A DNA stretch of 64,000 nt, taken from positions 31,207 through 95,206 of the forward strand of contig JAUXSB010000003.1 of NCBI GenBank assembly GCA_030681595.1. The letters are read 5' to 3'. The position numbers and the translations under genes are program-made. Below the pieces are notes generated by a model, which was not told the DNA's origin, ran no database searches, and saw only the letters and a program-made list of their open reading frames with translations. This document shows positions 36,033-61,601 of this stretch, in pieces. The DNA is from Candidatus Omnitrophota bacterium (GTDB lineage: Bacteria; Omnitrophota; Gorgyraeia; Ghiorseimicrobiales; Ghiorseimicrobiaceae). The first letter of the stretch is position 1, and the number at the start of each line of letters is the position of its first letter.

Positions 36033-36956
36033 TCACAAAAACCAGGTTATAAGCGCTCCGGAAAACATCCAAAAGGCAAAGGGCGTAGTTTTCTGAATAG
36101 TTCTTTCGGAATAAAAATCAATTATTTTCTTAAGCATAGGGAACAGCAGCATAATCAATACGGTCGATATGAATGTATTTTTTATTTCAAAAATAAATCT
36201 TTTATCCGTATACACAAAGTATAGTATCAAAAAAACAAAAGTAATCATTATAAATTTGGTATTTTTTTTAAACATTTTGGAAAGCTTTTTAAAAAGCAAT
36301 AGGGCGATCAACATCAAAATATTCTGATCGGGTAAAATCCTACCGATTAAATTTTGTAATGCTTGTCGTAAAACCTTAAAAGCTAGAAAAAGAGTAAGAA
36401 AGCCAAAAAAGACTTTGCTTAATTCAATTTTATTAAATTTACTCTTCTCTTTAATTAATTCTGCGGTTTGCTTCTTTAATTTCCCAAAATTAAATTTTTT
36501 AATAAAGTAGGCGCATGACCGCAAAAAAAGATAAGCTGTCGCCGGTATAAAAATACTTAACAACAATGAAAAGGAAGCAAAGTAATAATTAAAATAAACC
36601 CGAGAATACTGCCCCATTGGAATAAGGGCAGAATAGCAGATAAAAAGCTTCGCATCCCCTGCTCCCCACATCTTAAAATACCATAGCGAATATGCCACAA
36701 TTATACTCGTTATTAAATTAACGCACCATTTGTCAAAATTATGGACTAAACCAGAAGATATTTCTGCTAAAACATTATTCGTAATTCCGCTTAAGGACAG
36801 ATAATAAATAATCCAGGAGGATAAATATAAAACACATGCGTAGATTAATCCTATTAAAATCCACTTATTTCTGATTTTAGAATACCTTAAGTCTTCGTAA
36901 GACGTAACAAGCCCGATAAAGAAAATTATCGGCAAAAAAATAATATTATTAATCAT
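36033..36956 (-). CDS. A24-family aspartic peptidase-like polytopic membrane protein (prepilin/preflagellin peptidase-like)
   Basis: 307 aa with SYEDLRYSKIRN (first catalytic Asp context) and WGAGDAKL (the GxGD-type second Asp motif of PilD/FlaK). Confidence 0.45.
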   Translation of the reverse strand: MINNIIFLPIIFFIGLVTSYEDLRYSKIRNKWILIGLIYACVLYLSSWIIYYLSLSGITNNVLAEISSGLVHNFDKWCVNLITSIIVAYSLWYFKMWGAGDAKLFICYSALIPMGQYSRVYFNYYFASFSLLLSIFIPATAYLFLRSCAYFIKKFNFGKLKKQTAELIKEKSKFNKIELSKVFFGFLTLFLAFKVLRQALQNLIGRILPDQNILMLIALLLFKKLSKMFKKNTKFIMITFVFLILYFVYTDKRFIFEIKNTFISTVLIMLLFPMLKKIIDFYSERTIQKTTPFAFWMFSGALITWFL

Positions 36957-37214
36957 ATAACTAATAAGCTTTGTTAAAATTTATTTTATTTATTCTTGTT
37001 TCTAAATTATTACTATTACAACACATTGGCAACAAACAAGTTATGTATTTTTTAAAGCATCGTTAATAAATAAGGTTATATCTTTGCAACGCATAACCAT
37101 AACGTAACGCATTGCATTACAATAAGTTGTGAAAGAAGATTTCGCAAGATGCCCCTATTTTTAATAAAGCCCTGTAATAAATATTCCTCACGTAATTTTT
37201 TCTGTATTAAAGAT

Positions 37215-37700
37215 TCAAATATTATTGGATAATATCTTTTCCGAAATTTCTAACACCAAGCTTTTCAACTTAGAAAAATTGTTAGCATTTAATTTTAGAT
37301 ATTTATAGTAATATATAACGTAATCATGGTTAAAAAGTATGCCGTTACTCAGTTTATATTCGCCAAGATGCCGTAAAGCGAAAGCTAAATCTATCCAGTT
37401 ATCAAGATTGTCGGGGTTACGAGAAATGGATTTTAAAAAATATTTCTTCGCCTGAGAAAAGTCTTCGGCGATATAATAAATATATCCTGCAAGCGAAAAG
37501 ATTGTTTCTATCTGTTCTTCTTTTAACCAATTTTTAATTTTCCCTTGCAACATTCTTAATTTCTCGGGAGAAGAAAAATAAAGAATGGATAACCGGTAGA
37601 AAAGCGAATCTATCCGTTCAATATAGCCAGAAATATAATTTGTCTGACGAGGCGAGAGATCAAAACCAGCAATATTTTTAAATTCGTTACATATATCCAT
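37215..37700 (-). CDS. TPR-repeat protein
   Basis: 161 aa with TPR-like helical repeats (AKKYFLKSISRNPDNLDNWIDLAFAL). Confidence 0.45.
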   Translation of the reverse strand: MDICNEFKNIAGFDLSPRQTNYISGYIERIDSLFYRLSILYFSSPEKLRMLQGKIKNWLKEEQIETIFSLAGYIYYIAEDFSQAKKYFLKSISRNPDNLDNWIDLAFALRHLGEYKLSNGILFNHDYVIYYYKYLKLNANNFSKLKSLVLEISEKILSNNI

Positions 37701-38770
37701 TAATTAAACTGAACAATAAAAGGTATCTCCGGGGCAAAATTTCTCCTCTGCCATCTGATCCTTCTTATCAACTTGCCATTATTCAAAATCACAACATCTC
37801 TATCCTCTAAAAATACACAGTTTCCTCTTTTTAAGTCACTTTCATAAAGGTTATTTTCAGACATTTGACCAATGAAGTAGACATCTTTATAATGTAACTT
37901 ACCATTTTTAATCTCGCCATCAAAGGCATAAAATTTTATTTCATAAAAGATTAATAGGGGTAGTTTTAAATGCCTATCAATCTTTTCTACAAATTCCGGC
38001 TCTTCCGCATAAATCGCTTTTTTTATTTTTCTGGCCAATTCTATCGTAGCCTTACAATTATAAGCACAAGGCATATGATAGATATAGGAATAGGTAATAT
38101 CCCTAGTACAAGGATTAGATAAATAATGGTATCTATTTTTCTTGGTATTCTTAAATGCTTCATAAAGATAACTATACTTATACCAGTTATTAAACTGTCG
38201 AAAAAAACCGACACAACATTTTGGATATCCAAGGTTATATCCAAATTTAAAAATATCTATACCAGGCCTATCAATTACTCTATGTTTGATTATTAAAGGA
38301 TACCATCCATCTCTAAAACAATTTTCTAAGTTACCTTTTGATTTAGCAATAAATACATGAACAAGGCCATCTTTGCTTGACCCATTAAACGGTAAGCCAA
38401 ATGCATAAGTCGTAGTTAGGCGTTTACCACCTATAACATTTTTTAAAATATTTTTCTTTTTTGACATCCTAAAAACAGTATCGGTCCTTACAATAAGACC
38501 ATAGCGTTTGCATATTCTACGGTATTCATCATATCTATCCACCCTTACCCAGTCGTCCATCGCTGGCTTTATCTCTTTCACTGTAGCCATTATATTCACT
38601 AACTGCCCACTGCCCTTAATCTGGACAAATTCTCTACAGAATTTTTTTGGATAATAGGATTCAAACATTATAGATATAATGAAACTCCATGGCTTTACAG
38701 ACGCAGCACCCAAGAACCGCCTGCGCTTCGTTTTAGCTATGCCTGAAAGCAGGCATAGCTGCGACATCAC
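37700..38770 (-). CDS. hypothetical protein (no rSAM motif), cluster member
   Basis: 356 aa, tightly coupled (start/stop overlaps) with neighbours; GYPKCCVGFF motif of unknown meaning. Confidence 0.3.
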   Translation of the reverse strand: MMSQLCLLSGIAKTKRRRFLGAASVKPWSFIISIMFESYYPKKFCREFVQIKGSGQLVNIMATVKEIKPAMDDWVRVDRYDEYRRICKRYGLIVRTDTVFRMSKKKNILKNVIGGKRLTTTYAFGLPFNGSSKDGLVHVFIAKSKGNLENCFRDGWYPLIIKHRVIDRPGIDIFKFGYNLGYPKCCVGFFRQFNNWYKYSYLYEAFKNTKKNRYHYLSNPCTRDITYSYIYHMPCAYNCKATIELARKIKKAIYAEEPEFVEKIDRHLKLPLLIFYEIKFYAFDGEIKNGKLHYKDVYFIGQMSENNLYESDLKRGNCVFLEDRDVVILNNGKLIRRIRWQRRNFAPEIPFIVQFN

Positions 38771-38794
38771 GCCACAACGCTTTTTGCGGATAAC

Positions 38795-39766
38795 TTAAGC
38801 GCCTTTTATCGGCCTGAATTCTTCAGAGCCATATGCCTTTAAATAATGGACATATGGCCCAAGACAAAGGCTATTGAATACGCACCCACTACAAGAAACC
38901 ACCTTCCTTCTAGAGGTATATTTAAATGAATCATCTTTATTCTTTACACTCACCAAATAACCTCTGGAAATTTTTAATATTACGCATCTGAACATCTCCT
39001 TGTCAATCTTATTAATTATGCAAAATGGCATAGAGAGAAAATATCTTGCAAAATATATAAATAAATCAGAATGATAACGATATCTTTTTGTATACAACTC
39101 TACGGCTTTTTTAAAATACCTTATGACCTTTGTATATCTGGGCATTAGAAAATGGTAAAAAATAAGGGAAGCGGCATGCGGCCTATAATGATCTATCATA
39201 AAACGCATTCCAGGAAACTGTTCAATTTTAAGCCTTACCAAAGATGGAATATCCGCATAATTTTGCGTTAAAAAAATACCGTTTAATGTTACGGGTAAAT
39301 CAAACCGAGATAAATTGTTCAATGCCTCCATCAAATCAACAAATGAACCTGGAGAATTAGTTATCGCATCGTTTATCTTTGCAGTAGATCCGTAAATAGG
39401 AACATGAAATCCATTAGCTCCTGCCGTTACGACTTTCTTTAGAAAAACAAAATTCTTTAATTTTCTTCCCGTGGTTTGAACGGTGATATTTGTAAAAGAT
39501 AATTTACGCGCAAAAACTAATAAATCAATAATGGATGAACGGTTCAGTATTTCGTTACCCGTAAAGCATATCTTGCGAAAACCAAGCGACTTCGCAAGGC
39601 GTATCCTACATTTAATTGTATTTATATCATCCGGCTCATCATGGGTAAGTTGTTGCGTATTTTTTCCATGTACTAATCGGCTGTTCTGACAAAACACGCA
39701 AGAGTTATCGCATTGCGAATCTAATACTAAAATTATTTCATCGTTGTTTTGGAGAATAGGCATCAC
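38795..39766 (-). CDS. radical SAM protein, island paralog family (twitch-like C-terminal 4-Cys)
   Basis: 323 aa with CDNSCVFC and a C-terminal FCIIN...CSGCVFNSLCLG...YGSEEFRPIK. Confidence 0.7.
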   Translation of the reverse strand: MMPILQNNDEIILVLDSQCDNSCVFCQNSRLVHGKNTQQLTHDEPDDINTIKCRIRLAKSLGFRKICFTGNEILNRSSIIDLLVFARKLSFTNITVQTTGRKLKNFVFLKKVVTAGANGFHVPIYGSTAKINDAITNSPGSFVDLMEALNNLSRFDLPVTLNGIFLTQNYADIPSLVRLKIEQFPGMRFMIDHYRPHAASLIFYHFLMPRYTKVIRYFKKAVELYTKRYRYHSDLFIYFARYFLSMPFCIINKIDKEMFRCVILKISRGYLVSVKNKDDSFKYTSRRKVVSCSGCVFNSLCLGPYVHYLKAYGSEEFRPIKGA

Positions 39767-40650
39767 TTAACAGGTTTAAACTCTTGCCACCCAAAAAACT
39801 CAGGATATTCACGCCAGGGTCCCTCGCAAATTTTGAAATATTTGCATTCTTCACACTTCGGCCCTTTAAGTTTTCCATGTTCTCTGCGCCACTGGTTAAA
39901 ATTGGTTATCGGTTTAATATCAAATACCTTGGTTTCAGGAATAATCGCTTCACTAGCACAATTGGCATATTCGCTTAAAAAACAATACGGTATGGCTTCA
40001 GTTTTTGGCATTTTTTTCTTCCTAATGCCAATTTCCAGGCCGCGTTTTAAATAAAGAATAATATCTTTTTTCTGCGGTATTAGCCAACTATGATTCGCTA
40101 ATGCGTTTCCTAAAATATGAGGAAAGGAAAAACGATATTCAACCACCCCTAAGCCAACTAACATCAAAGCAATCTTAGGTAAAAAGCGGTAATTCAATGC
40201 AGTAATAACTGTATTAGTAAATACTACGCGACCAGAAGAAAGGAGATGCTTAATACCACAAATCGTCTGAGCGAAACTTCCCCTCGCTCCCGTATGGCTA
40301 TCATGCAACTCAGCATTATGTCCATGTACCGATATAGTAAAAAGACTTGCACCTGCCTCTATCATTTTTTTACAAAAATCTTTATACCTAAACATTCTTC
40401 CGTTGCTTTGAATATGAACAATATATCCTAACTTTTTAGAATATCTTACCAAGTCTATGATATCAAAACGTATTGTAGGTTCTCCACCTGTAAAAATTAC
40501 CTCTTTATAACTATCTTTCGAATCAGCTAAAATAGTTTCTATCTGTGAGCGCGCCATATCGTTGTAGATTTTGCGCTTGTTACCTTGGACACAAAAACTA
40601 CAGTGGTTATTACATCTAAAACTAATTTTTATATCCAGCCTCTTATGCAT
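39763..40650 (-). CDS. radical SAM protein, island paralog family
   Basis: 295 aa with CNNHCSFC, FTGGEPT, SVHGHNAELHDSHTG, and C-terminal IPYCF...CEECKYFKICEG...FGWQEFKPV. It is a close paralog of 55967-56872. Confidence 0.75.
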   Translation of the reverse strand: MHKRLDIKISFRCNNHCSFCVQGNKRKIYNDMARSQIETILADSKDSYKEVIFTGGEPTIRFDIIDLVRYSKKLGYIVHIQSNGRMFRYKDFCKKMIEAGASLFTISVHGHNAELHDSHTGARGSFAQTICGIKHLLSSGRVVFTNTVITALNYRFLPKIALMLVGLGVVEYRFSFPHILGNALANHSWLIPQKKDIILYLKRGLEIGIRKKKMPKTEAIPYCFLSEYANCASEAIIPETKVFDIKPITNFNQWRREHGKLKGPKCEECKYFKICEGPWREYPEFFGWQEFKPVK

Positions 40651-40681
40651 ACATCTATCCTAACCTTAATTATCCGTTGTC

Positions 40682-41614
40682 TTACGGCTCGCTTTTAACA
40701 TGTTTTATTGTCTCTTCTTTGGAAACAAAAACAGCGTATAGTTCTTGCGAAGAAAAATATTTATCCATCGCATAAAGGCCGGGACATATTTCATTCAAAA
40801 AACAAACACTACAACACTCAACCTTGCCATATGACCATCCTCTTTGGACTTTAAGGCCCTTTTCATCTAAGAAATAAATCGCGCGCTTCTCTCTCTTTAT
40901 TATTTTTCTGGCTTCCGTAGAACAATGTGCAAAATCAGCCATGTAACATAAGGGTACGCGTTCCGCCCTAAAAGTTCTCTTTTGCTCGGCTAAAAAATGC
41001 ATTGCCCTATTGAGCTCTAATTCAAAATCTATCAGTCGGGGAATCGTATCGGGATTTTCTGATGCGCGGTTCATCGAAGGGTCAATATTATTCCAGATAA
41101 AATGGCGAATAAACGGATATCTATTCACAAGCCACGCCGTAATTCTGCTTAAATGATCGGCATTATATTTATTAATCACGGTAATAACATCAACCTGCAA
41201 ATTTAACTTTTTGGCATTGTTAAGCGTTTTTTTAATGTTACATAAAGAATCCTTGTTCTCAGTAAGAAAACCCTGAATATCAGCACTATCAGAGTAGATG
41301 GATAAATTGATATGGTTTAATCCTGCCTCTGCCAATGAGTTAATATATTTAAAGTCGGCTGTTTTTTGGCCATTCGTTATTATTCTGACTGGAAAATTTT
41401 TGTTTGTTGCATACGCGATCAATTCAATGAGATCTGGATATAGGGTCGGCTCTCCTCCGCTTAAAATAACCCCATCGCAACCTATCTTGACATAATAATC
41501 AATTAACTCCTTAGCTTTCTTAAGAGATATGGTTTTATCAAACGACGGATTAGAACAAAATCTGCATTTTTGATTACAAATACGCGTAACCTGTATATAA
41601 GCTAATTCGGCCAT
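40682..41614 (-). CDS. radical SAM protein, island paralog family
   Basis: 310 aa with CNQKCRFC, LSGGEPT, and C-terminal VPLCY...CCSVCFLNEICPG. Confidence 0.7.
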   Translation of the reverse strand: MAELAYIQVTRICNQKCRFCSNPSFDKTISLKKAKELIDYYVKIGCDGVILSGGEPTLYPDLIELIAYATNKNFPVRIITNGQKTADFKYINSLAEAGLNHINLSIYSDSADIQGFLTENKDSLCNIKKTLNNAKKLNLQVDVITVINKYNADHLSRITAWLVNRYPFIRHFIWNNIDPSMNRASENPDTIPRLIDFELELNRAMHFLAEQKRTFRAERVPLCYMADFAHCSTEARKIIKREKRAIYFLDEKGLKVQRGWSYGKVECCSVCFLNEICPGLYAMDKYFSSQELYAVFVSKEETIKHVKSEP

Positions 41615-41618
41615 GTTT

Positions 41619-42644
41619 TCAGTAATTGCATTTATGTTTATGCTTGTTTTTTATTTCTGAATCAAATATGCTAATCCGCTCTAAAGTATGCAATATTTCT
41701 TTCGGATTTTTATCTGAAAGCGTTAGATTAAAATTAGGATAAACTTTTAGATAATCTCTTCTTACCCCCGGGCATATTTCACACAAAGAACAGCCTCTGC
41801 ATTCTCTGTATTTATAAAAATCTTCTTTGGCGATATCATTTTGAGTCCTGAGATTATTTATCCCGCGCGAATCAAGATATAAGTTATTATGATATAAATT
41901 TTCTTTTAATTCAACACTGGACCATTCATAAGAAGAGAGGATACATAACGGAAAACCGCAAGCAGAAATTTTATCCGTAGGGTTATCCCCTCCTAACGCC
42001 TTTAACGCTTTTAAAAGATAAGGCTGAATCTTATTTAGCGGAGGAAGTATCTTTTTGTAAAAAGTACTGTCATTGCCGCCTAAATCCATAAATTTAAATT
42101 TTACCCTGAATGGCGTATGCCTTAATATTTTTTTAAGATGAGTCGCCATGCCCTCTAATTCTTTATAATTCAAGCTATTAATTACCGTGTTGAAATTAAT
42201 CGCTAGCCTTTCTCTTATCTTTTTATTATCCTTATTAAATGATTCGATATTTAGTAAAGCCTTTTCCTGTAAAGAATGGCAAAACTTATTTCTTGATATG
42301 GCATTTGCAACCTTTGGGATATGCGAGTGAAAAGAAAAATTTATCTGCACGACTCCGCCTTTAATAACCTTAACTAAAAAATCATAGTAACTAAGCATTG
42401 AACCGTTAGTTGTAACCTTAAGTTTTAAATTACATTTTTTGGCTTCTTCCAATATTTTTAAAAAATCTGGCCTAATGAATGATTCCCCGGTCATTAACAT
42501 AACTGTATCTTCCTTGTAACTCTTAACTTTTTGAAACAATTGCCTAATTTCTCCAAAAGAAAGATCTTTTTTATGCTTATGCTGCCTATCCAGACAAAAT
42601 AAACAGTTGAAATTACATTTTTGGGTAATGCCTGTAATAATCAT
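41619..42644 (-). CDS. radical SAM protein, island paralog family (divergent)
   Basis: 341 aa with CNFNCLFC and C-terminal FPLCIL...CRGCSLCEICPG. Confidence 0.65.
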   Translation of the reverse strand: MIITGITQKCNFNCLFCLDRQHKHKKDLSFGEIRQLFQKVKSYKEDTVMLMTGESFIRPDFLKILEEAKKCNLKLKVTTNGSMLSYYDFLVKVIKGGVVQINFSFHSHIPKVANAISRNKFCHSLQEKALLNIESFNKDNKKIRERLAINFNTVINSLNYKELEGMATHLKKILRHTPFRVKFKFMDLGGNDSTFYKKILPPLNKIQPYLLKALKALGGDNPTDKISACGFPLCILSSYEWSSVELKENLYHNNLYLDSRGINNLRTQNDIAKEDFYKYRECRGCSLCEICPGVRRDYLKVYPNFNLTLSDKNPKEILHTLERISIFDSEIKNKHKHKCNY

Positions 42645-50455: not shown

Positions 50456-50800
50456 TTAAAAGCGTGAAAATGTGTTTTCTTTCGAATAAATACGCAAATT
50501 ACTGTGAATCATTTTTTTAAATTTACGGTTATCCCCCTAGGTGTTTAAAAGTATATCCCGTATAGACGAAGAGGTTTTTCCGATATCATCCAAACTTTTT
50601 ATATCATTCACTGTGCCAAAATAAAATTCTCTTTTTAGCTTTTTAAATTTAGTCTCAAGCAATGGCCCCCCACAAAATATATCCCCCCGTCGCAATCAAC
50701 AGCCGGTTCAGAAGATATGATCCGCTCACCTTCCCGAATTTTGAAATTCGCTATAAAATTAATAATCTATTGATACTGGGTAAAACTTGCGTATCCATAA

Positions 50801-55977: not shown

Positions 55978-56872
55978 ATTTTTTTAGGACAGGGACAAAT
56001 TCTGACCAGCCAAATTTTTCAGGATACTCTTTCCACGGCCCTTCACAAATTTTATAATGATAGCAATGCCTGCAAGACAAATTCTTCGCTTTTCCTTCTT
56101 TTTTACGTACTTTCGTAAAATCATCGATAACCTTTCCAAGGTCATAAATTATTGTTTCGGGTATAATCTTTTCAGCGATATAATCTTCATAGCCTTGCAT
56201 GAAACAATAAGGTATTGCTTCTGTCATGACTTTTTTATTAGCCTTGATACCTATACCCAAACCTTCCTTAACATAGGGCATAACCATTGAAATTCTCGGC
56301 ACAACAGAATAAAAATTATCGCCTGCCGAACCGGCAGCATGGACAAATGCAAATTGAAATTGGTCAACGCCAAGTTTTACCAAAAGCTCAGCGATTTGCG
56401 CTAGATGCCTATAATTAGGTTTAGTAATAACCGTGTTAGTGATTACAGTTTGATTTCGTTGTTTTAAATTTATTATTCCCGCGACAGTCTCGTTAAAGCT
56501 GCCGGCAGAAGAAGTCAAATAATCATGGACTTGGGCGATATGCCCATGGAGTGCCGGAGAAAATTCATTCGCCCCTGCGGCAATAATTTCATCGCAAAAC
56601 TTTTTATAATAGAATATCCTGCCGTTAGTTTGTATTTGGATAATTTTAAATTTCAATCTTTTGGCATGGCCAACCAAATCTAAAATATCGCTTCGTATTG
56701 TAGGCTCGCCTCCGGTAAAAACAACCCCATCGCAGTCTCGCCTGGCATCCTCTAAAATCTTCTTTATAGCAAGAGTATCTTTATCGCTTTGCAGGTGTCT
56801 CTTCTTGCCCTGGACGCAAAACCGGCAATGGTTATTGCAAGCAAATCCGATTTTAATATCAACTCTTTTCAT
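55967..56872 (-). CDS. radical SAM protein, island paralog family (close paralog of 39763-40650)
   Basis: 301 aa with CNNHCRFCVQGKKR, FTGGEPT, ALHGHIAQVHDYLT, and C-terminal IPYCFMQ...CRHCYHYKICEGPWKEYPEKFGWSEFVPV. Confidence 0.75.
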   Translation of the reverse strand: MKRVDIKIGFACNNHCRFCVQGKKRHLQSDKDTLAIKKILEDARRDCDGVVFTGGEPTIRSDILDLVGHAKRLKFKIIQIQTNGRIFYYKKFCDEIIAAGANEFSPALHGHIAQVHDYLTSSAGSFNETVAGIINLKQRNQTVITNTVITKPNYRHLAQIAELLVKLGVDQFQFAFVHAAGSAGDNFYSVVPRISMVMPYVKEGLGIGIKANKKVMTEAIPYCFMQGYEDYIAEKIIPETIIYDLGKVIDDFTKVRKKEGKAKNLSCRHCYHYKICEGPWKEYPEKFGWSEFVPVLKKYGR

Positions 56873-57842
56873 TTTTAAGGTAGCGCACGAAAGATGTTAA
56901 AACTTTATCTACTGCCATTGTAGAATCAAAAATCGGCTTAGAGACGCCCTCTTTAATTATTTGCCTAATATTTGCCAAACCGGGAAAATGAGTTTTTATA
57001 AAAGGAAGGCTTCTAACGGACCCGATCTTAAGTTGTTTTCTAAAAGGGGCGAAATATTTAGCCAAAAATAAATTATTTGTGAAAATGTCGCCATTACAGT
57101 CAACGACTAAACCGGCGTTAAATAAAGGAACGGTATTCGTAAAGTCTAAATTCCTAATATAGATATCCATTTTATTTCTGTTCCCTAGTATAAATCTTGC
57201 GATTTTATAAAAATTATTTTTCAACAATTTTATTTTATTTTTATCCCAATAAATAAAATAAGCCGGCAAAAAGTTAAAACGATTAAAACCCAGCTTCAGG
57301 ACATAGATAAAATTATTATAAAATACCTCTGCGGTATTGGGCGCAATAACCATATTTATAGTTACGCGGCCCGGATAAGAAGAAAAGAGTTTGTGTCTAT
57401 TTAAAATTATTGTATCAAACGATTCTTTTTTATTCTTTGTAATCCTATTGCGTAATTGGGTATCTCGATCGCCATCTAAACTTATAATTAATTCTATATC
57501 CCTGTTTGTCTTTAAAAAATCTATGATTTTATTGTTTAATAACGACCCGTTGGTCGTCAGTTGAAATTGAATTTTTTTATGCAAAATTTCCGCTTTTTTT
57601 CTTGCGAATATTATAATATCCCTTAGCAAAGCAAAATTCATTAATGGCTCGCCGCCGGAAAATTTGATTAAACAATTATCGGGCGCGATTTTCAAAAAAA
57701 AATCTACGGATATTATGGCGATATCATAATTTATCTTTGAAAAATCACGTATGGTTGGACAATACCGGCACTGGAAATTACAGCGATGGTTTATTATAAT
57801 TATTAGTTGCGGGGGGAGCGAATTAATATTACCATTGGCCAT
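56859..57842 (-). CDS. radical SAM protein adjacent to the His-Xaa-Ser precursor (HxsB/HxsC-like partner)
   Basis: INHRCNFQCRYC. I moved the start to ATG 57842 (MANGNINSLPP...), overlapping the last 4 codons of the precursor. The track N-terminal extension MAPMAPMAP is the alternate frame of the precursor's 9-bp DNA repeat. Confidence 0.6.
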   Translation of the reverse strand: MANGNINSLPPQLIIIINHRCNFQCRYCPTIRDFSKINYDIAIISVDFFLKIAPDNCLIKFSGGEPLMNFALLRDIIIFARKKAEILHKKIQFQLTTNGSLLNNKIIDFLKTNRDIELIISLDGDRDTQLRNRITKNKKESFDTIILNRHKLFSSYPGRVTINMVIAPNTAEVFYNNFIYVLKLGFNRFNFLPAYFIYWDKNKIKLLKNNFYKIARFILGNRNKMDIYIRNLDFTNTVPLFNAGLVVDCNGDIFTNNLFLAKYFAPFRKQLKIGSVRSLPFIKTHFPGLANIRQIIKEGVSKPIFDSTMAVDKVLTSFVRYLKNEKS

Positions 57843-58125
57843 GAGAACCATGGGAACTATGGGAGCCATGGGAGCCATGGGAGCCATGCGGAGTGCCCGA
57901 ATTATGCCCTCCTCTGCCGGCTGTAACAAGAGCATTAGCATGGTTATTATGCGAAGCATGGCTGGCAGCCTGGGCAGAATCAGGCTTAAACATCGCGGAT
58001 AAAACAGCTAAAGATATCCCTATCTTAGCGATATCCTTTTTGCTAATTTTACCTTCTTCTCTTAAAAGGAAATCTTTTATTTGCTTCTTGATCCGCGGTA
58101 ACCTACTTTCGTTTTTTTCTTTCAT
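57829..58125 (-). CDS. His-Xaa-Ser repeat precursor protein (HxsA-like)
   Basis: 98 aa. Charged N-region, hydrophobic IAKIGISLAVLSAMF, AQA-AS signal-peptidase-like site, then a His-rich core ASHASHNNHANALVTAGRGGHNSGTPHGSHGSHGSHSSHGSHGQW. G-rich SD 4 nt before the ATG. It is encoded by a ccatgggag tandem DNA repeat. Confidence 0.6.
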   Translation of the reverse strand: MKEKNESRLPRIKKQIKDFLLREEGKISKKDIAKIGISLAVLSAMFKPDSAQAASHASHNNHANALVTAGRGGHNSGTPHGSHGSHGSHSSHGSHGQW

Positions 58126-58154
58126 CGTACCCCCCCCTTGCTTATAGCTAGAAA

Positions 58155-58895
58155 CTACTCTACCGGCTGTCTATCGGCTTCTTTAGAAAAACTATCTTTT
58201 GAAGCTGGATAATACTGTTCAAAGAAATTTCTAAAACTTTTGCATTTCTTGCAAACACTCTCATCCCGTGATACGCTGCCTTTACATAACATGCTAAGGT
58301 ATTCATCGCTTATCTCATTACACTTATTAACATCATTAGTTTCCAACGCCTGTATATAATAAACCCTACCGGTGCACTTCTTATCCCCTTTACTGCAATA
58401 CTTAGGGTCTCTAAGCCTAAGCGCCATACAGTCATTTTTCTGGTCCTTACTTATTGAATTATCACACGCAGCAACATCTTGAGCAAAAAAACTGTCCGCT
58501 ACTTTACGGCAATCTACGGCAGTTGGTTTACCTTCCTGTTTCTGGCAGGCCTCCATAAACTTCTGGGTAACAGAACCCATCACAACCAGTTCGCTAAAAA
58601 ATCTGTGGAAACCATAGAAATTACGCCTACATAAATTAGCTTCATCTTTCGATAAATTATTGCATACACTTACGTTATCTCTAGCGGCTGCTAAACACGT
58701 CAGATATGTATCTAAAAAACCCTGCCTTTTCGAATAACCTTCAAATATAACTTTACTTAAATTGTCTATATTAAAATCATTGATTGCTTGTTCCTTGGCA
58801 TTATCTTCGGCCAAAGCATTACAATTATTAAACCCAACTAAAAAGCATCCACCCAACAAAGCTATTACTAAAAACCTGAATATGAAAGTTTTCAT
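58155..58895 (-). CDS. secreted Cys-rich lipoprotein-like protein
   Basis: Start taken at ATG 58895, which overlaps the upstream gene stop as ATGA. MKTFIFRFLVIALLGGC lipobox-like signal. About 18 Cys residues scattered through the mature part. Confidence 0.45.
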   Translation of the reverse strand: MKTFIFRFLVIALLGGCFLVGFNNCNALAEDNAKEQAINDFNIDNLSKVIFEGYSKRQGFLDTYLTCLAAARDNVSVCNNLSKDEANLCRRNFYGFHRFFSELVVMGSVTQKFMEACQKQEGKPTAVDCRKVADSFFAQDVAACDNSISKDQKNDCMALRLRDPKYCSKGDKKCTGRVYYIQALETNDVNKCNEISDEYLSMLCKGSVSRDESVCKKCKSFRNFFEQYYPASKDSFSKEADRQPVE

Positions 58896-60361
58896 AGCGC
58901 CGCCTTTCCTTTCGTGCAATCTTTTACCCAGCGTTCAAATATATTCTTATATTGACTATTCTGTAATTTTTCAAAGAGATAGTCCAAAATCGCGCCGTTA
59001 ATCTTACATCTTCCATTAAAAGGCTGAAATATATTTTTGCTTTCCGTATAATTTAATAAAGGGCACACACCGCAATATGGTTTATAGACACATTGGCTGC
59101 ACTCAGGGATATTATCTAAACAGGAGCTTATACACATCGCCTTAACAGTTGGATGCTCAATTATATTTTTATATGTGTCGGTTTTTACGTTTCCGACCTT
59201 AAATGATTCATCTCCTAGCCTGCTAAGCATCCTGCCTTCGTCGCATGTGTAGATATCACCGTTATAATTATAAGCTACTTGGCCGATACCGGCGCCGCAA
59301 GGAGAGCGCATATCCATATAGCCGGGGTCATAATCAGTAAGTATTTTATATAGGAATATGAACGCCGTCCTCTCGTAAAAATTGCTTCCTTTTAAATTTA
59401 ACTCTAAGATATAATCCAGGGATTCTTTATAAAACTCAATAAATTCTCCCCACGAATACGCGAGGCTATCCGCCTTGGGCGCCAATGCAAATGTGGACAA
59501 GGGACGTAAATGGATACAATCTAATCCACCCTTTATATACTCATCAATAATCTCTTTGGAATGGCCGAAACAACGATTGGTCACCGTCAATAATGCATTT
59601 GGGCGGTGCTTAAAACCCGTTTTTTCAAATTCTATTTTTATCTTCCTAAGCCACTTTACGGTATTGCGGTAGCTATTGATATTCTTATTAAGGCTTACGC
59701 GATTTCTATTATGTATATGTTCCGGGCCATCAAGCGATGTACAAATACTTACGTCATTTTTTATTAAAAATTTTAATATCTCATCTGTTAAACAACTCAA
59801 ATTAGAAACAAGAGAAAGCGTTAATTTTTTTTCTTTATTCTTATTTTTTTTCTTGGCATATTCAATTATAAATTTTACTGTATTAAAATTAAGTAACGGC
59901 TCTCCTCCTTGAAATTCGATAGTAATTTCGGGGGCCGGAAATTCAAAAATTTTATCAACAACAGACTTGGCTGTCGGGATATCCATATCTAAACCGGCCG
60001 TCTTAATGCCTCCGGAGTTAGCTTGACAATAGGCGCATTTGTGGTCGCATCTTAATGTTACCACTATTATATGCAAGCTAGTCCCTCGAGATAAAAAATC
60101 GTGCTTGTTTGCATATTTGGCAATTAACTTATCAAAATCTAATTTATTACGCACAAAACTTTTGTTTATAAGCTCATCGTATTTAACCTCATCCTGCTTC
60201 ATAATCTCGTTAATCTCTCCCTTTATGAAGCTATTAAACCAGCCCGGTTTTAAAAAACAGTATTCTCCTACATCATTAGTGACAAGATAGCTGCCGTTAA
60301 ACCTCTTGAAACGAAAGTATGAAACCGCTTTCTTGTCAATCAAATTTACATCTATAGCCAT
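58892..60361 (-). CDS. radical SAM/SPASM-domain maturase (HxsB-like)
   Basis: 489 aa with VVTLRCDHKCAYC rSAM motif and a C-terminal SPASM-type Cys cluster CGAG...YTCDEG...CISSCLDNIPECSQCVYKPYCGVCP. Confidence 0.65.
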   Translation of the reverse strand: MAIDVNLIDKKAVSYFRFKRFNGSYLVTNDVGEYCFLKPGWFNSFIKGEINEIMKQDEVKYDELINKSFVRNKLDFDKLIAKYANKHDFLSRGTSLHIIVVTLRCDHKCAYCQANSGGIKTAGLDMDIPTAKSVVDKIFEFPAPEITIEFQGGEPLLNFNTVKFIIEYAKKKNKNKEKKLTLSLVSNLSCLTDEILKFLIKNDVSICTSLDGPEHIHNRNRVSLNKNINSYRNTVKWLRKIKIEFEKTGFKHRPNALLTVTNRCFGHSKEIIDEYIKGGLDCIHLRPLSTFALAPKADSLAYSWGEFIEFYKESLDYILELNLKGSNFYERTAFIFLYKILTDYDPGYMDMRSPCGAGIGQVAYNYNGDIYTCDEGRMLSRLGDESFKVGNVKTDTYKNIIEHPTVKAMCISSCLDNIPECSQCVYKPYCGVCPLLNYTESKNIFQPFNGRCKINGAILDYLFEKLQNSQYKNIFERWVKDCTKGKAAL

Positions 60362-60561
60362 TCTTTATTACTCCATAAGGCATAATTGGCAAACTCGTCA
60401 ACAAATACTTTTTTAAAATCTTGATCAATATCATTTATTTCTACCTGCGTATAGTTTTTAGTATTTTTAATTATAAATTTCGCCAAATGGGCATAAGCCG
60501 AAACTGCCGCTTTAACCGCCCTCCTATTATATAATTTATTATTAAACTTTAGATTCCACAT
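60352..60561 (-). CDS. small protein coupled to the SPASM maturase (possible HxsD-like)
   Basis: 69 aa, overlapping both neighbours by 10-20 nt; DEFANYALW motif. The HxsD assignment is from memory of that family only. Confidence 0.25.
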   Translation of the reverse strand: MWNLKFNNKLYNRRAVKAAVSAYAHLAKFIIKNTKNYTQVEINDIDQDFKKVFVDEFANYALWSNKEWL

Positions 60562-60967
60562 TATCTTTTTTTACTTTTTTATTTTTACCGTATTTATCTT
60601 CCCAGGGCACAGCTATCCCAAGCGGATCATCGCGATAATCCAGCTTTTCATCAGAAGAAAACAAATCAAAATTTGAATCCGGCGGAGTAGAGTATAGGGC
60701 ACGGGCAACAACATATTCGCGTATCTTCTTATTATTTTTACTTACTATACACCTTAAAGCAGAATATAATAGTTCATTCATAAAGCTATCTTTCAGTAAC
60801 TCTATTTGCCTATCGGAAAGTTTCTTTTTGGGCTTAAGCGAAACTACCACCTTCTCGTCTTTACCGGCATCTAAATCCAGAAAAAAATAAATAGAATCAA
60901 TAAAAAGATAACACGTGCTTAAAATGGCTTCTAACGGATATATTTTGGTTCTTAGTTCTATTTTCAT
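60542..60967 (-). CDS. hypothetical protein
   Basis: 141 aa ORF translationally coupled to the downstream gene. Confidence 0.3.
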   Translation of the reverse strand: MKIELRTKIYPLEAILSTCYLFIDSIYFFLDLDAGKDEKVVVSLKPKKKLSDRQIELLKDSFMNELLYSALRCIVSKNNKKIREYVVARALYSTPPDSNFDLFSSDEKLDYRDDPLGIAVPWEDKYGKNKKVKKDNVESKV

Positions 60968-61010
60968 GCCTCACCTTTTTTAAAAAGCTAATCTGGATAT
61001 CACTACAATA

Positions 61011-61601
61011 CTATGTTTCACAACACATCATCGATCCGGCTTTAGGCAAAACCATATCCGTACAGCTTGTGCTAGCTGCTGAAGTAGTGCAAGTCCCGCC
61101 TTGCGTAAAAGGTATATAAGACAAGCGTGAAGTGCAACTCTCCCCCGCATCAGTACAGACACCATTATTATTCCAATCGCCGCATTGCATCAACGAAGGA
61201 ACATCATTAGCAGTAAAAGTCATCAGACGACAACCGAGTCCTGCGGCTTGAATTCGCGCAAGCTGAGCAGTCCGAATATTCCAGAAAGTTACAGTATTTG
61301 AGAATGTCGCTCCATCACTAATTCTTATCTCTAAATCATTAGCTCCGGCATCACCGCCGATACCGATTACATCTCCATAACCTGTCCTAACTATGGCGAA
61401 ATTCGGCCACCAAGTAACATCACCAACAGGAAAACCAACCCTAGCTCGTTGCGCTTCAAGGTCTCCGTAAACCCCAAAAGGCGAAGGGTAATAATTAGTG
61501 ATGGTGATATCTTCAGCTTGAGATAAAACAGGGGATGCGGAAAATAAAAGGCAGGAAAAAGAAAAAAGAAAAACAGCAACAATTAATTTTACCTTTTGCA
61601 T
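61011..61601 (-). CDS. secreted protein with Cys-rich C-terminus (first gene of the island)
   Basis: 196 aa with signal peptide MQKVKLIVAVFLFSFSCLLFSASPVLSQA. The C-terminal 60 aa contain 9 Cys and end in CCET. Confidence 0.4.
   Translation of the reverse strand: MQKVKLIVAVFLFSFSCLLFSASPVLSQAEDITITNYYPSPFGVYGDLEAQRARVGFPVGDVTWWPNFAIVRTGYGDVIGIGGDAGANDLEIRISDGATFSNTVTFWNIRTAQLARIQAAGLGCRLMTFTANDVPSLMQCGDWNNNGVCTDAGESCTSRLSYIPFTQGGTCTTSAASTSCTDMVLPKAGSMMCCET

What the first reader, a model, noticed from the sequence alone, without database searches (positions are those of the whole stretch)
36033..61601. A ~25.5-kb single-strand island packing 17 radical SAM genes (18 rSAM domains) around a His-Xaa-Ser repeat precursor
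From 61601 down to 36033 every gene is on the minus strand with gaps of 0-45 bp or overlaps; the only larger gaps are 345 and 258 bp. The island encodes 11 paralogous ~300-aa rSAM proteins of one family plus a fused tandem double. It also encodes two HemN-like rSAMs, one B12-binding rSAM, one SPASM rSAM and one further rSAM. These sit with a His-rich repeat precursor, two secreted Cys-rich proteins, an A24-like membrane protease, a TPR protein and three proteins without recognisable motifs. That density of rSAM enzymes in one apparent operon is far beyond known RiPP clusters, which typically have 1-3 rSAM genes. The co-location with a His-Xaa-Ser precursor resembles the computationally defined HxsABCD system but is massively expanded. 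I read this as a candidate new peptide or protein maturation system of unknown product. The assignment rests on motifs I read myself (CxxxCxxC, GGEPT, SPASM Cys pattern), not on database hits.
Basis: partly seen in the sequence, partly recalled or inferred. Interest (0 to 1): 0.95.

Follow-up and report, generated by a model that had tools for sequence, protein, structure and literature searches.

The report
Giant radical-SAM His-Xaa-Ser peptide operon
An uncultured Omnitrophota bacterium carries a 25.6-kb operon in which 17 radical-SAM enzymes, a prenyltransferase-like protein and a prepilin-peptidase-like protease surround one small histidine-rich peptide; it is a hugely expanded, uncharacterised relative of the four-gene HXS antiphage system, and related forms recur in many ultra-small and predatory microbes.

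Summary
Window 36033-61601 holds 26 tightly packed minus-strand genes. Seventeen of them carry 18 Pfam radical-SAM domains, and the whole 64-kb window has only one His-Xaa-Ser precursor.

The core is a true Hxs module. HxsD, an HxsD-like protein, HxsB and HxsA4 all pass NCBIfam cut-offs, and NCBI already uses those names in this Candidatus Omnitrophota MAG. The 13 roughly 300-aa domains are HxsC-like but fall far below the HxsC and HxsC4 cut-offs. They are ancient paralogs, 17-35% identical to each other.

Two "unknown" proteins were resolved. One is an ABBA prenyltransferase-like fold. The other is a DUF483 protein with no annotated structural relative. The membrane protein keeps both catalytic Asp residues of GxGD prepilin peptidases.

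The architecture is not unique. A conserved trio (C1, C8, C11) plus the protease recurs in Omnitrophota, Patescibacteria, DPANN archaea, Myxococcota and Elusimicrobia, with up to 12 rSAM genes per 20 kb. Gene fusions tie the accessory proteins to C1.

My best reading is a multi-step maturation pathway for an exported, hypermodified His-rich peptide. Its chemistry and biological role are unknown. I rate it a new variant of a known kind, of high interest.

The parts
61650..61678 (-). Promoter-like site (TTGACA-17-TATATT, 11/12) in the 73-bp gap between MtaB and the first island gene
   Evidence: a consensus match only, with no enrichment over shuffles
61011..61601 (-). Sec196: 196-aa protein with an N-terminal hydrophobic signal-like segment and 9 Cys; no family hit
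   Evidence: weak homologs in the same position in L008 and L022
60542..60967 (-). HxsD (141 aa)
   Evidence: TIGR03976 55.4 bits, cut-off 50; NCBI MDP1852673.1 'His-Xaa-Ser system protein HxsD'
60352..60561 (-). HxsD-like protein (69 aa)
   Evidence: NF038315 64.8 bits, cut-off 41; MDP1852672.1; conserved in 14 loci
58892..60361 (-). HxsB, radical SAM/SPASM maturase (489 aa)
   Evidence: TIGR03978 490 bits, cut-off 370; PF04055 and PF13186 pass; MDP1852671.1
58155..58919 (-). Cys254: secreted or lipoprotein-like protein with 15 Cys; no family hit
   Evidence: orthologs at 26-40% identity in the same slot in L007, L008, L022 and L043
57829..58125 (-). HxsA4 precursor (98 aa): conserved leader, K-I-G, hydrophobic segment, AQA, then a 45-aa His/Ser/Gly core ending in GQW
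   Evidence: NF038313 60.7 bits, cut-off 55; MDP1852669.1; alignment of 27 homologs; the 9-bp x6.1 tandem repeat at 57838-57893 encodes (SHG)n
56859..57842 (-). PapB-like radical SAM protein without a SPASM Cys motif (327 aa from the corrected start)
   Evidence: PF04055 48.7 bits; best NCBIfam hit PapB at 130 bits, cut-off 340; fused to C1 in 5 loci
55967..56872 (-). C1: HxsC-like rSAM, the most conserved orthogroup and the HxsC equivalent of minimal type-4 systems
   Evidence: HxsC4 166 bits (cut-off 500), HxsC 104 bits (cut-off 268); more than 3054 homologs; 101 loci at >=40% identity; sits in a 4-gene system in L070
54970..55977 (-). U335: ABBA/PT-barrel prenyltransferase-like protein (335 aa)
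   Evidence: AF2 pLDDT 76.6, pTM 0.77, five bbaa units; the top 50 Foldseek PDB hits are all prenyltransferases (PirF 3e-8, PatF, PagF, LimF, KgpF, DMATS); fused to C1 in L019 and L092
54030..54977 (-). C2: HxsC-like rSAM
53114..54082 (-). C3: HxsC-like rSAM
51720..53114 (-). HemN1: HemN/HemZ/STM4012-like rSAM (class-C methyltransferase-like)
   Evidence: NF006067 183 bits (cut-off 380), HemZ 169 bits (cut-off 321)
50801..51742 (-). C4: HxsC-like rSAM
50456..50800 (-). 345-bp gap; no Rfam match; contains a 52-aa TTG ORF (50537-50695)
   Evidence: NCBI accession numbering implies one extra called gene between the B12 rSAM and C1 (inference)
48923..50455 (-). B12-binding-domain radical SAM protein (510 aa)
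   Evidence: PF04055 63 bits; PF02310 31.5 bits (cut-off 32.1); TIGR04190 175 bits (cut-off 500)
47995..48912 (-). C5: HxsC-like rSAM (accessory orthogroup)
47064..47990 (-). C6: HxsC-like rSAM (accessory orthogroup)
45697..47055 (-). HemN2: second HemN-like rSAM
44731..45693 (-). C7: HxsC-like rSAM, with C1 one of the two single-domain paralogs scoring highest on NCBIfam HxsC4
   Evidence: HxsC4 161 bits; the 'C7-like' lead gene of Myxococcota operons scores 334 bits on HxsC4
42644..44734 (-). C8-C9: tandem double HxsC-like rSAM (696 aa); the N-terminal half (C8) belongs to the conserved trio
   Evidence: two PF04055 domains; C8 has orthologs at >=40% identity in 60 loci
41619..42644 (-). C10: HxsC-like rSAM (the most divergent)
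40682..41614 (-). C11: HxsC-like rSAM, member of the conserved trio
   Evidence: orthologs at >=40% identity in 73 loci
39763..40650 (-). C12: HxsC-like rSAM, 50% identical to C1
38795..39766 (-). C13: HxsC-like rSAM
37700..38668 (-). U356: DUF483-family protein (322 aa from the corrected start) with an invariant P-x-CC ... PC-x3-C motif
   Evidence: PF04467 22.3 bits (cut-off 25); 115 homologs, many with PF04467, one fused to an rSAM; AF2 pLDDT 91; no annotated structural relative; fused to C1 in L025 and L050
37215..37700 (-). TPR protein (161 aa)
   Evidence: TPR_17 24.9 bits (cut-off 24.4); 45% ortholog next to U356 and A24 in L092
36033..36956 (-). A24-like GxGD membrane aspartyl protease (307 aa)
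   Evidence: PF01478 24.3 bits (cut-off 26.5); D22 and W97-x-A-G-D101-A-K103 invariant in 51 orthologs; NCBI name 'prepilin peptidase', MDP1852648.1
35909..35927 (-). Terminator-like hairpin just downstream of the last island gene
   Evidence: a consensus match only

Best explanation
This is one long operon for the stepwise maturation and export of a single ribosomal peptide, HxsA4.

Shown here:
- The precursor has a strongly conserved, charged 30-aa leader (PKIKKxIKxFLxSEEGKIxKKxxxKxG). A 10-16-residue hydrophobic segment follows, then an AxA-type site, then a His-X-Ser/Gly repeat core that usually ends in Trp.
- The operon encodes bona fide HxsB, HxsD and HxsD-like proteins.
- It encodes 13 anciently diverged HxsC-like radical-SAM domains. 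All keep the CxxxCxxC motif and a C-terminal Cys motif suited to a second Fe-S cluster.
- It also encodes a SPASM-less PapB-like rSAM, two HemN-like rSAMs and one B12-domain rSAM (methyltransferase-type families), a prenyltransferase-fold protein, a DUF483 protein, and a GxGD protease with both catalytic Asp residues.
- Gene fusions in other genomes link C1 to the PapB-like rSAM, to the prenyltransferase-like protein and to DUF483.

Inferred:
- In the cytoplasm, the leader is held by HxsD-type adaptors. Published work showed an HxsC-HxsD complex in the canonical system.
- HxsB, the PapB-like enzyme and C1 perform the ancestral Hxs modification on the HxS core. In the canonical system this is a +8 Da change (+C, -4H).
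- The other paralogs, the methyltransferase-type rSAMs and the prenyltransferase add further cross-links, C-methylations and a lipid.
- The peptide is then inserted or exported through its hydrophobic segment. The leader is removed by the dedicated GxGD protease at the conserved K-x-G site, and/or by signal peptidase at AxA.
- The product is a hypermodified, His-rich peptide at the cell envelope.

Its biological role is not shown. By analogy with canonical HXS, an envelope-level barrier against incoming phage or foreign DNA is the leading guess. Metal binding is the obvious alternative.
For: - Hxs membership of the core proteins, and the same names in NCBI's own annotation.
- All 17 rSAM genes pass PF04055.
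- Paralog divergence is ancient (17-35% identity), with catalytic and C-terminal Cys retained in every domain. In the C1 family C12, C16, C19, C223, C267, C270 and C276 are invariant.
- The same gene order recurs in Omnitrophota, Parcubacteria and other lineages: HxsD, D-like, HxsB, (Cys-rich protein), HxsA4, PapB-like, C1 and onward.
- Only one precursor is present in 64 kb.
- The precursor consensus covers 27 sequences from bacteria and DPANN archaea. Gly precedes the hydrophobic segment in nearly all rows, and the terminal residue is W in 20 of 30, with WC in 4 more.
- Both catalytic Asp of the protease are invariant in 51 orthologs. It co-occurs with C1, C8 and C11.
- U335 has a PT-barrel fold.
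- Fusions seen: PapB-like-C1 in 5 loci, C1-U335 in 2, C1-DUF483 in 2, plus rSAM-DUF483 (P0241).
- A minimal four-gene system (HxsA4-HxsD-HxsB-C1) exists in Desulfobacter L070.
- Published for the canonical system (PMC13128918): rSAM-dependent N-terminal processing, a +8 Da modification, an HxsC-HxsD complex, and periplasmic export.
Against: - No chemistry or expression data exist for this locus.
- None of the 13 paralog domains reaches the HxsC or HxsC4 cut-off.
- Myxococcota and 'Deltaproteobacteria' mostly carry a compact operon (C7-like, C1, C8, C11, protease) with no HxsB, HxsD or precursor within 10 kb (27 of 30 loci). The HxsC-like module may therefore not strictly need HxsA4, or its precursor may be encoded elsewhere.
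- The HxS repeat number ranges from 4 to 50 and does not track the rSAM count.
- Identical SHG repeats offer no obvious handle for 13 site-specific enzymes.
- The hydrophobic segment followed by AxA looks like an ordinary Sec signal, so the role of the GxGD protease is uncertain.
- HxsA4 lacks the peptidoglycan-binding domain that canonical HxsA needs. PADLOC gave no defence-model hit, and the flanking genes are housekeeping and chemotaxis genes.
Confidence: 0.62

Rival explanations
1. Two systems lie side by side. A small Hxs core (HxsD, D-like, HxsB, HxsA4, PapB-like, C1) sits next to an independent module of HxsC-like rSAMs plus a membrane protease. That module would act on another substrate: other secreted proteins such as the two Cys-rich proteins, a membrane component, or a small molecule.
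For: The compact C7-like/C1/C8/C11/protease operons of Myxococcota lack any nearby precursor, HxsB or HxsD. Two conserved Cys-rich secreted proteins are encoded inside the core. The weaker similarities of the paralogs include non-peptide rSAM enzymes such as MoaA, AhbD/NirJ, BlsE and Tes. A 345-bp gap splits the island.
Against: C1 itself belongs to both the compact module and the minimal HxsA4-HxsD-HxsB-C1 system. C1 is fused to the PapB-like core enzyme and to accessory proteins. Where contigs are long enough in CPR, Omnitrophota and DPANN, the array follows the precursor directly on the same strand. The best family matches are the Hxs models for nearly all paralogs (C10 is the exception), not any non-peptide family.
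Confidence: 0.15
2. The peptide is a precursor of a metal-binding or redox-active product: a metallophore, metallochaperone, or a peptide-derived cofactor in the manner of PQQ or mycofactocin. It would not be a defence effector. The rSAM enzymes would cross-link and trim the His/Ser/Trp core into a chelating or quinone-like moiety.
For: The core is about 20% His, in SHG repeats, with a conserved C-terminal Trp or Trp-Cys. From general knowledge, His-rich repeats are classic Ni, Zn and Cu ligands, and rSAM/SPASM enzymes make PQQ and mycofactocin from the C-terminal residues of small peptides. The system sits among housekeeping genes, not in a defence island. It is retained in very small genomes, such as the 1.18-Mb DPANN genome L039.
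Against: No transporter, reductase or cofactor-using enzyme is encoded in the island. The precursor has an export signal, whereas PQQ and mycofactocin precursors do not (general knowledge). The only experimentally studied relative acts in antiphage defence (PMC13128918).
Confidence: 0.13
3. The island is an assembly chimera, or a decaying pile of duplicated rSAM pseudogenes with no coherent function.
For: It is MAG-derived sequence. Island GC is 5-10 points below the flanks. A 44-bp tandem repeat lies at the distal border, and one assembly breaks there.
Against: An independent Logan assembly covers the whole island plus the MtaB/RsmE/Memo flank in one contig. All ORFs are intact and keep their catalytic motifs. 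The same RsmE-MtaB-HxsD order occurs in Omnitrophota MAGs L019 and L043. Orthogroups are conserved at 45-70% identity across phyla.
Confidence: 0.02

Closest known systems
Canonical HXS antiphage system (HxsD-HxsB-HxsC-HxsA; TIGR03976-03979; Li et al., Nat Commun 2026, PMC13128918)
   Same: It shares homologous HxsB, HxsD and a His-Xaa-Ser repeat substrate, and HxsC-type rSAMs with a second, C-terminal CxxC cluster motif. The substrate has an N-terminal export or processing region and is matured by cytoplasmic rSAM enzymes.
   Different: The canonical system has four genes, 99.7% of them in Pseudomonadota. [quoted passage not shown] Here there are 26 genes and a 98-aa peptide without that domain. 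There are 13 HxsC-like domains, none passing the HxsC cut-off, plus PapB-like, HemN-like x2 and B12 rSAMs, a prenyltransferase-like protein, DUF483, TPR, a GxGD protease and two Cys-rich secreted proteins. The lineages differ too: Omnitrophota, CPR, DPANN and Myxococcota, with no Gammaproteobacteria among the 80 best loci.
NCBIfam 'type 4' Hxs models (HxsA4 NF038313, HxsC4 NF038332 'rare', HxsD-like NF038315); curated names only, no publication found
   Same: The window's precursor and its 69-aa protein pass the HxsA4 and HxsD-like cut-offs, and NCBI annotates them as such. This is the clade the models were built for.
   Different: No window protein reaches HxsC4 (best single-domain score 166 bits against 500). 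The best HxsC4 match found is the lead gene of the compact Myxococcota operon (334 bits). The models name single proteins and say nothing about multi-paralog arrays, the protease or the prenyltransferase.
Multi-rSAM RiPP pathways (for example proteusin/polytheonamide with PoyB/C/D) and cyanobactin prenylation (PagF, LimF, KgpF); from general knowledge and PDB hits
   Same: These also use a leader-dependent precursor, several radical-SAM tailoring enzymes including B12-dependent C-methyltransferase types, and an ABBA prenyltransferase acting on peptide side chains. U335's best structural matches are PirF, PatF, PagF and LimF.
   Different: To my knowledge, known RiPP clusters carry about 1-3 rSAM genes, not 17. 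There is no sequence-level similarity between U335 and those prenyltransferases. The precursor class and enzymes are unrelated to proteusins and cyanobactins.
Prepilin peptidase / class III signal peptide processing (PilD, TadV, FlaK; Peptidase A24)
   Same: The membrane protein has an invariant first Asp and a G-D-A-K second-Asp motif. The substrate has a charged N-terminal leader ending in Gly immediately before a hydrophobic helix.
   Different: Pfam A24 scores just below its cut-off (24.3 against 26.5). No pilus assembly genes lie in the island. The precursor also has an AxA signal-peptidase-type site after the hydrophobic segment, which pilins lack. Cleavage was not tested.

Membership tests
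His-Xaa-Ser (Hxs) system | HxsB radical SAM/SPASM maturase (TIGR03978) | tested here: met
   490.4 bits against a 370 cut-off, full length
His-Xaa-Ser (Hxs) system | HxsD small protein (TIGR03976) | tested here: met
   55.4 bits against a 50 cut-off; a second HxsD-like protein scores 64.8 on NF038315 against 41
His-Xaa-Ser (Hxs) system | His-Xaa-Ser repeat substrate (HxsA family) | tested here: met
   HxsA4 model NF038313 scores 60.7 bits against 55; 7 HxS motifs
His-Xaa-Ser (Hxs) system | HxsC radical SAM maturase (TIGR03977, or HxsC4 NF038332) | tested here: not met
   The best single-domain scores are 104 bits (HxsC, cut-off 268) and 166 bits (HxsC4, cut-off 500). The two-domain protein scores 187 and 217. 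The Hxs models rank top or near the top for nearly all paralogs (C10 is the exception), but all sit below cut-off.
Canonical HXS antiphage system (Li et al. 2026) | Four-gene architecture HxsD-HxsB-HxsC-HxsA | tested here: not met
   26 genes, with the order D, D-like, B, Cys-rich protein, A4, then 20 more genes; compare
Canonical HXS antiphage system (Li et al. 2026) | HxsA effector with a peptidoglycan-binding domain | tested here: not met
   The precursor is 98 aa with no Pfam domain; canonical features are described
Canonical HXS antiphage system (Li et al. 2026) | Blocks phage DNA entry | not testable with these tools
   This needs phage challenge experiments. PADLOC 2023 has no HXS models and gave only generic viperin-level rSAM hits.
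Radical SAM superfamily (PF04055) | CxxxCxxC cluster motif and a PF04055 match above the gathering score | tested here: met
   17 genes and 18 domains, at 45.9-145.7 bits against a 29.5 cut-off
B12-binding radical SAM (class B methyltransferase-like) | N-terminal B12-binding domain PF02310 plus an rSAM domain | tested here: inconclusive
   PF02310 scores 31.5 against 32.1, just below cut-off; TIGR04190 scores 175 against 500
HemN-like (class C) radical SAM | A match to a HemN, HemZ, HemW or ChuW family model above its cut-off | tested here: not met
   The best scores are 183 (cut-off 380) and 169 (cut-off 321) for HemN1, and 151 (cut-off 380) for HemN2. No HemN C-terminal domain was reported. 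This is similarity only.
Peptidase A24 (prepilin peptidase, GxGD aspartyl protease) | Two catalytic Asp, the second within a G-x-G-D motif, in a polytopic membrane protein | tested here: met
   D22 and A-G-D101-A-K are invariant in 51 orthologs. The Pfam score is 24.3 against 26.5, just below cut-off. NCBI names it 'prepilin peptidase'. Activity was not tested.
ABBA (PT-barrel) aromatic/RiPP prenyltransferases | Ten-strand antiparallel barrel made of five bbaa units, with basic and Tyr residues lining the barrel | tested here: met
   The model shows five bbaa units. The top 50 Foldseek hits are all prenyltransferases, at prob 1.00 and TM 0.42-0.68. K57, R75, K141, K199, Y201, K255 and Y260 are invariant and lie on strands. 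There is no sequence-level match, and catalysis was not tested.
DUF483 (PF04467) | A Pfam match above the gathering score | tested here: inconclusive
   The window protein scores 22.3 against 25. Many homologs at 45-70% identity carry a precomputed PF04467 hit.

The most novel reading that the evidence does not exclude
The product may be a new kind of cell-surface molecule: a radical-SAM-hypermodified, possibly prenylated 'mini-pilin'. HxsA4 would carry a class-III-type signal (charged leader, Gly, hydrophobic helix) cut by its own dedicated prepilin-peptidase homolog. That would leave a hydrophobic anchor helix with a cross-linked His-rich tail displayed on the envelope. Such a molecule could be used by ultra-small episymbionts and predators (CPR, DPANN, Omnitrophota, Bdellovibrionota, Myxococcota) for host or prey contact, metal capture, or exclusion of incoming DNA. 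The 13 HxsC-like enzymes would then make this the most radical-SAM-dense peptide pathway known, with each orthogroup installing a different modification.
Probability: 0.12. Interest if true: 0.95.

Novelty: new variant of a known kind. Interest (0 to 1): 0.8.

Why it matters
Radical-SAM peptide pathways are a main source of new enzymology, and to my knowledge known clusters use one to three such enzymes. A conserved operon with 17 of them, acting apparently on one 45-residue His/Ser/Gly core, implies a density and variety of radical chemistry not yet seen.

The only studied relative, the four-gene HXS system, was shown in 2026 to block phage DNA entry through an undefined +8 Da modification. 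The expanded form offers many diverged paralogs with which to dissect that chemistry.

Its distribution makes it a candidate determinant of envelope biology in lineages that cannot yet be cultured. It occurs in Omnitrophota, Patescibacteria and DPANN archaea, where it can take about 1% of a ~1-Mb genome, and in Myxococcota and Bdellovibrionota. The compact versions may be more accessible, because Myxococcota and Bdellovibrionota include cultivable, genetically tractable species; the compact operons seen here came from MAGs.

Tried and rejected
- **PADLOC defence models.** Only generic viperin-level rSAM similarity appeared, with nothing for the non-rSAM proteins.
- **Rfam.** The whole window and the 345-bp gap upstream of the B12-rSAM gene were searched for a cobalamin or SAM riboswitch. 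Only one tRNA outside the island was found.
- **Profile searches of U335 and U356 against PDB sequences.** Only chance-level hits.
- **C1 profile against PDB.** Only distant BlsE, GDGT-MAS and SkfB matches.
- **Promoter and terminator scans.** Counts were at or below the shuffled expectation. The sites noted at the island's ends are consensus matches only.
- **Literature searches.** Four searches (Hxs terms; rSAM with CPR, DPANN and Omnitrophota; rSAM RiPP in CPR; rSAM with prepilin peptidase) found nothing on expanded Hxs arrays. Haft & Basu 2011 is not held.
- **Viral contigs.** No close C1 relative, best 24-29% identity, so I rejected a phage-borne origin.
- **One paralog per HxS repeat.** Rejected, because repeat number ranges from 4 to 50 independently of rSAM count.
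- **Recent tandem duplication.** Rejected, because the paralogs are 17-35% identical and several have cross-phylum orthologs.
- **Second precursor.** None in the 64-kb window.

Full report
**1. Observation.**

Between 36033 and 61601 there are 26 ORFs, all on the minus strand, and they fill about 24.9 of 25.6 kb. Neighbouring genes overlap by up to 53 bp or are separated by at most 43 bp. The exceptions are gaps of 345 bp (50456-50800) and 258 bp (36957-37214), plus 126 bp once one start codon is corrected.

Seventeen ORFs contain CxxxCxxC, and one contains it twice. All 17 pass Pfam's radical SAM model, with two domains in the 696-aa protein.
- eleven ~300-aa paralogs plus a tandem double;
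- two HemN-like proteins;
- one B12-domain protein;
- one SPASM protein;
- one further rSAM;
- a His-rich 98-aa ORF;
- two Cys-rich proteins with signal-like N-termini (9 and 15 Cys);
- a TPR protein;
- an A24-like membrane protein.

Four corrections apply.
- The whole 64-kb window is transcribed from the minus strand, so strand does not define the island.
- What does define it is a GC drop to 0.30-0.37, against 0.39-0.46 elsewhere, and comparative synteny.
- The 366-aa ORF that overlaps the precursor begins with an out-of-frame reading of the SHG repeat. Its real start is most likely 57842.
- One gene caller took that long ORF and missed the precursor altogether.

The window comes from a Candidatus Omnitrophota MAG (307-kb contig, proteins MDP1852648-MDP1852674). 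A separately assembled 30-kb Logan contig covers the entire island and its MtaB/RsmE/Memo flank. It ends inside a 44-bp tandem repeat just beyond the island. The island is therefore not an assembly chimera.

**2. What the parts are.**

NCBIfam places four proteins in the His-Xaa-Ser system above curated cut-offs:
- HxsB, 490 bits (cut-off 370);
- HxsD, 55.4 (50);
- an HxsD-like 69-aa protein, 64.8 (41);
- the precursor as HxsA4, 60.7 (55).

NCBI's pipeline has already given these names in this MAG. It labels the paralogs I looked up (C1, C7, C8C9) simply 'radical SAM protein' and the membrane protein 'prepilin peptidase'.

I call the thirteen ~300-aa domains C1-C13. Nearly all have HxsC4 or HxsC as their best or near-best hit (C10 is the exception), but at 44-166 bits against cut-offs of 500 and 268. 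They are HxsC-like and do not qualify as members of either family.

They are 17-35% identical to each other, and only C1 and C12 reach 50%. All keep the SAM-cluster cysteines and a C-terminal CxxCxxxxxC motif. All but one also keep an upstream P-x-C. This matches the second cluster motif reported for canonical HxsC.

The remaining rSAMs are:
- a PapB-like enzyme lacking SPASM cysteines;
- two HemN/HemZ/STM4012-like proteins;
- a B12-domain protein. All of these score below family cut-offs.

**3. The former unknowns.**

The 335-aa protein (54970-55977) has no sequence-level match in Pfam, NCBIfam or PDB. Its AlphaFold model (pLDDT 76.6, pTM 0.77) consists of five ββαα units. All of its top 50 Foldseek matches are PT-barrel prenyltransferases. 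They are led by the RiPP enzymes PirF, PatF and PagF and include LimF (annotated simply as a prenyltransferase; a His-modifying enzyme from memory), KgpF and the tryptophan DMATS enzymes. Its invariant Lys, Arg and Tyr residues lie on the barrel strands.

The 322-aa protein (37700-38668) belongs to DUF483 and carries an invariant P-x-C-C ... P-C-x3-C motif. It has 115 homologs, mostly in Omnitrophota, and one of them is fused to an rSAM domain. It folds confidently (pLDDT 91) but has no annotated structural relative.

The membrane protein scores just under Pfam's A24 cut-off. Even so, D22 and the W-x-A-G-D-A-K motif are invariant in 51 orthologs, which is the signature of an active GxGD prepilin-type protease.

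**4. The precursor.**

Twenty-seven non-identical homologs from bacteria and DPANN archaea share one layout:
- a charged leader, P-K-I-K-K-x-I-K-x-F-L-x-S-E-E-G-K-I-x-K-K-x3-K-x-G;
- then 10-16 hydrophobic residues;
- then an A-x-A-type site;
- then a His/Ser/Gly core with (S-H-G)n.

The last residue is Trp in 20 of 30, and 4 more end in Trp-Cys. The Gly directly before the hydrophobic stretch is present in nearly all rows of the alignment. Together with a dedicated A24 homolog, this resembles a class III (prepilin-type) signal. The A-x-A site equally suggests signal peptidase I. Repeat number ranges from 4 to 50. The window holds only one such gene.

**5. Comparative genomics.**

C1 has more than 3,000 homolog clusters. 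The best 80 are 54-70% identical to C1. Counted by hand from the record titles, they are:

| Group | Loci |
|---|---|
| Myxococcota / 'Deltaproteobacteria' | 30 |
| Patescibacteria (CPR) | 18 |
| DPANN or other archaea | 8 |
| Omnitrophota | 6 |
| Elusimicrobia | 4 |
| Bdellovibrionota | 2 |
| Others | 12 |
| Gammaproteobacteria | 0 |

By contrast, 99.7% of canonical HXS systems are in Pseudomonadota.

Across 118 loci I found 451 HxsC-like domains.
- C1, C8 (the N-terminal half of the double) and C11 form a conserved trio, with orthologs at ≥40% identity in 101, 60 and 73 loci. They usually occur with the A24-like protease.
- C5, C6, C7 and C9 are accessory, found in 4-10 loci.
- C2, C3, C4, C10 and C13 have no close ortholog in the ±10-kb windows I could see. 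C12 has one.

The leading order recurs in Omnitrophota, Parcubacteria, Saccharibacteria, Moranbacteria, Schekmanbacteria and archaea. That order is HxsD, D-like, HxsB, (Cys-rich protein), HxsA4, PapB-like, C1. Omnitrophota loci L019 and L043 even share the RsmE-MtaB flank.

Other genomes reach 10-12 rSAM genes within ±10 kb of C1. The window therefore lies at the upper end of a recurring class and is not a singleton.

The smaller forms are informative.
- The minimal form, in Desulfobacter L070, is HxsA4-HxsD-HxsB-C1, which identifies C1 as the working HxsC equivalent.
- In Myxococcota a compact operon (C7-like, C1, C8, C11, protease) usually stands alone, with no precursor in range.
- Its lead gene is the best match found to NCBIfam's 'rare' HxsC4 (334 bits).

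Gene fusions link C1 to three partners, arguing that they act in one pathway:
- the PapB-like rSAM (5 loci);
- the prenyltransferase-like protein (L019, L092);
- DUF483 (L025, L050).

No close relative occurs on 2.9 million viral contigs.

**6. How it most likely works.**

Shown: the parts list, their conservation, their linkage and their catalytic motifs.

Inferred:
1. A cytoplasmic maturation line holds the HxsA4 leader on HxsD-type adaptors. An HxsC-HxsD complex was demonstrated for the canonical system.
2. HxsB, the PapB-like enzyme and C1 carry out the ancestral Hxs modification of an HxS motif. In the canonical system this is +8 Da, interpreted as +C, -4H.
3. The further HxsC-like paralogs, the methyltransferase-type rSAMs and the prenyltransferase add cross-links, C-methyl groups and a lipid.
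4. The peptide then enters the membrane through its hydrophobic segment. The leader is removed by the GxGD protease at K-x-G and/or by signal peptidase at A-x-A.
5. The result is a hypermodified His-rich peptide at the envelope.

The biological role is open. An envelope barrier to incoming DNA, by analogy with HXS, is the leading guess, but HxsA4 lacks the peptidoglycan-binding domain that canonical HxsA requires. Metal binding, a peptide-derived cofactor and a pilin-like surface molecule all remain possible.

The main weakness of the model is the compact Myxococcota operon, which has no local precursor.

**7. Comparison and novelty.**

The locus passes three of the four protein membership tests for the Hxs system. 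It fails the HxsC test and the architectural features of the characterised antiphage HXS. It corresponds to NCBIfam's uncharacterised 'type 4' names, and I found no publication on them.

I file it as a new variant of a known kind: an Hxs-type system expanded from 2 to 17 radical-SAM genes and joined to a prenyltransferase-like protein, DUF483 and a prepilin-peptidase-like protease. Interest is high because of three things: the unprecedented enzyme density on one small peptide, the link to a freshly discovered defence mechanism of unknown chemistry, and its prevalence in CPR, DPANN and Omnitrophota.

Noticed in passing
window 35608-35794: A 44-bp tandem repeat (4.2 copies, 96% identical) lies in the 439-bp spacer between the island and the next gene. 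By coordinate arithmetic, the independent Logan contig ends inside it (about window 35763).
   Followed up: partly
window 56859-57959 against 57829-58125: A 363-366-aa ORF overlaps the precursor in another frame. Its N-terminus (MAPMAPMAPIVPMV) is the out-of-frame translation of the SHG repeat. The Logan gene call used this ORF and missed the precursor, so HxsA4-type precursors may be under-called in metagenomes.
   Followed up: yes
window 50456-50800 (ORF 50537-50695, 52 aa, TTG start): NCBI protein accession numbering (B12 rSAM = MDP1852660, C1 = MDP1852667) implies one more called gene than my table between those two, possibly in the 345-bp gap. There is no Rfam match there.
   Followed up: partly
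window 1-33000: The whole window is minus-strand. The flank genes are ordinary chromosomal ones: NiFe hydrogenase large subunit (1783-3156), H+-pyrophosphatase (8680-10800), CTP synthase (11829-13448), a PAS-GGDEF-HD protein (13537-15117), a chemotaxis cluster (CheR-TPR 16914-18470, MCPs 20464-21738 and 24220-25374, CheA-CheW-REC 21892-24216), and a tRNA at 30839-30926.
   Followed up: partly
L019:10001-11878, L092:658-2526; L025:7254-9131, L050:1941-3692; L040, L049, L056, L073, L127: Natural gene fusions occur: C1 with the prenyltransferase-like protein, C1 with DUF483, and the PapB-like rSAM with C1.
   Followed up: yes
L023:3135-4802 and L080:7334-8863: Giant HxsA4-like proteins (555 and 509 aa) carry the same leader, up to 50 HxS motifs and an extra conserved C-terminal domain of unknown function. 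L023 also has a 144-aa precursor with 27 HxS motifs.
   Followed up: no
L070:7585-10906 (Desulfobacter MAG): A minimal four-gene type-4 system: HxsA4 (80 bits), HxsD (43 bits, below cut-off), HxsB (514 bits) and a C1 ortholog.
   Followed up: yes
L041:8827-14598, L081:8849-14767 and about 20 similar loci: A compact Myxococcota/'Deltaproteobacteria' operon of four HxsC-like rSAMs plus the A24-like protease, with no HxsB, HxsD or precursor within 10 kb. Its substrate is unknown.
   Followed up: partly
[not shown]
   Followed up: partly
precursor cores in window, L007, L008, L011, L019, L022, L035, L043: Upstream of the SHG repeats, many precursors share a second motif, roughly N-S-G-x-R-G-(G/D)-H-x-S. 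It recalls the S-H-R-S-S site that carries the +8 Da modification in canonical HxsA.
   Followed up: no
L039 (Candidatus Fermentimicrarchaeum limneticum, complete 1.18-Mb genome): A DPANN archaeon with a tiny genome keeps the protease, HxsD, HxsB, HxsA4 and at least six further rSAM genes in one locus, which is roughly 1% of its genome.
   Followed up: no
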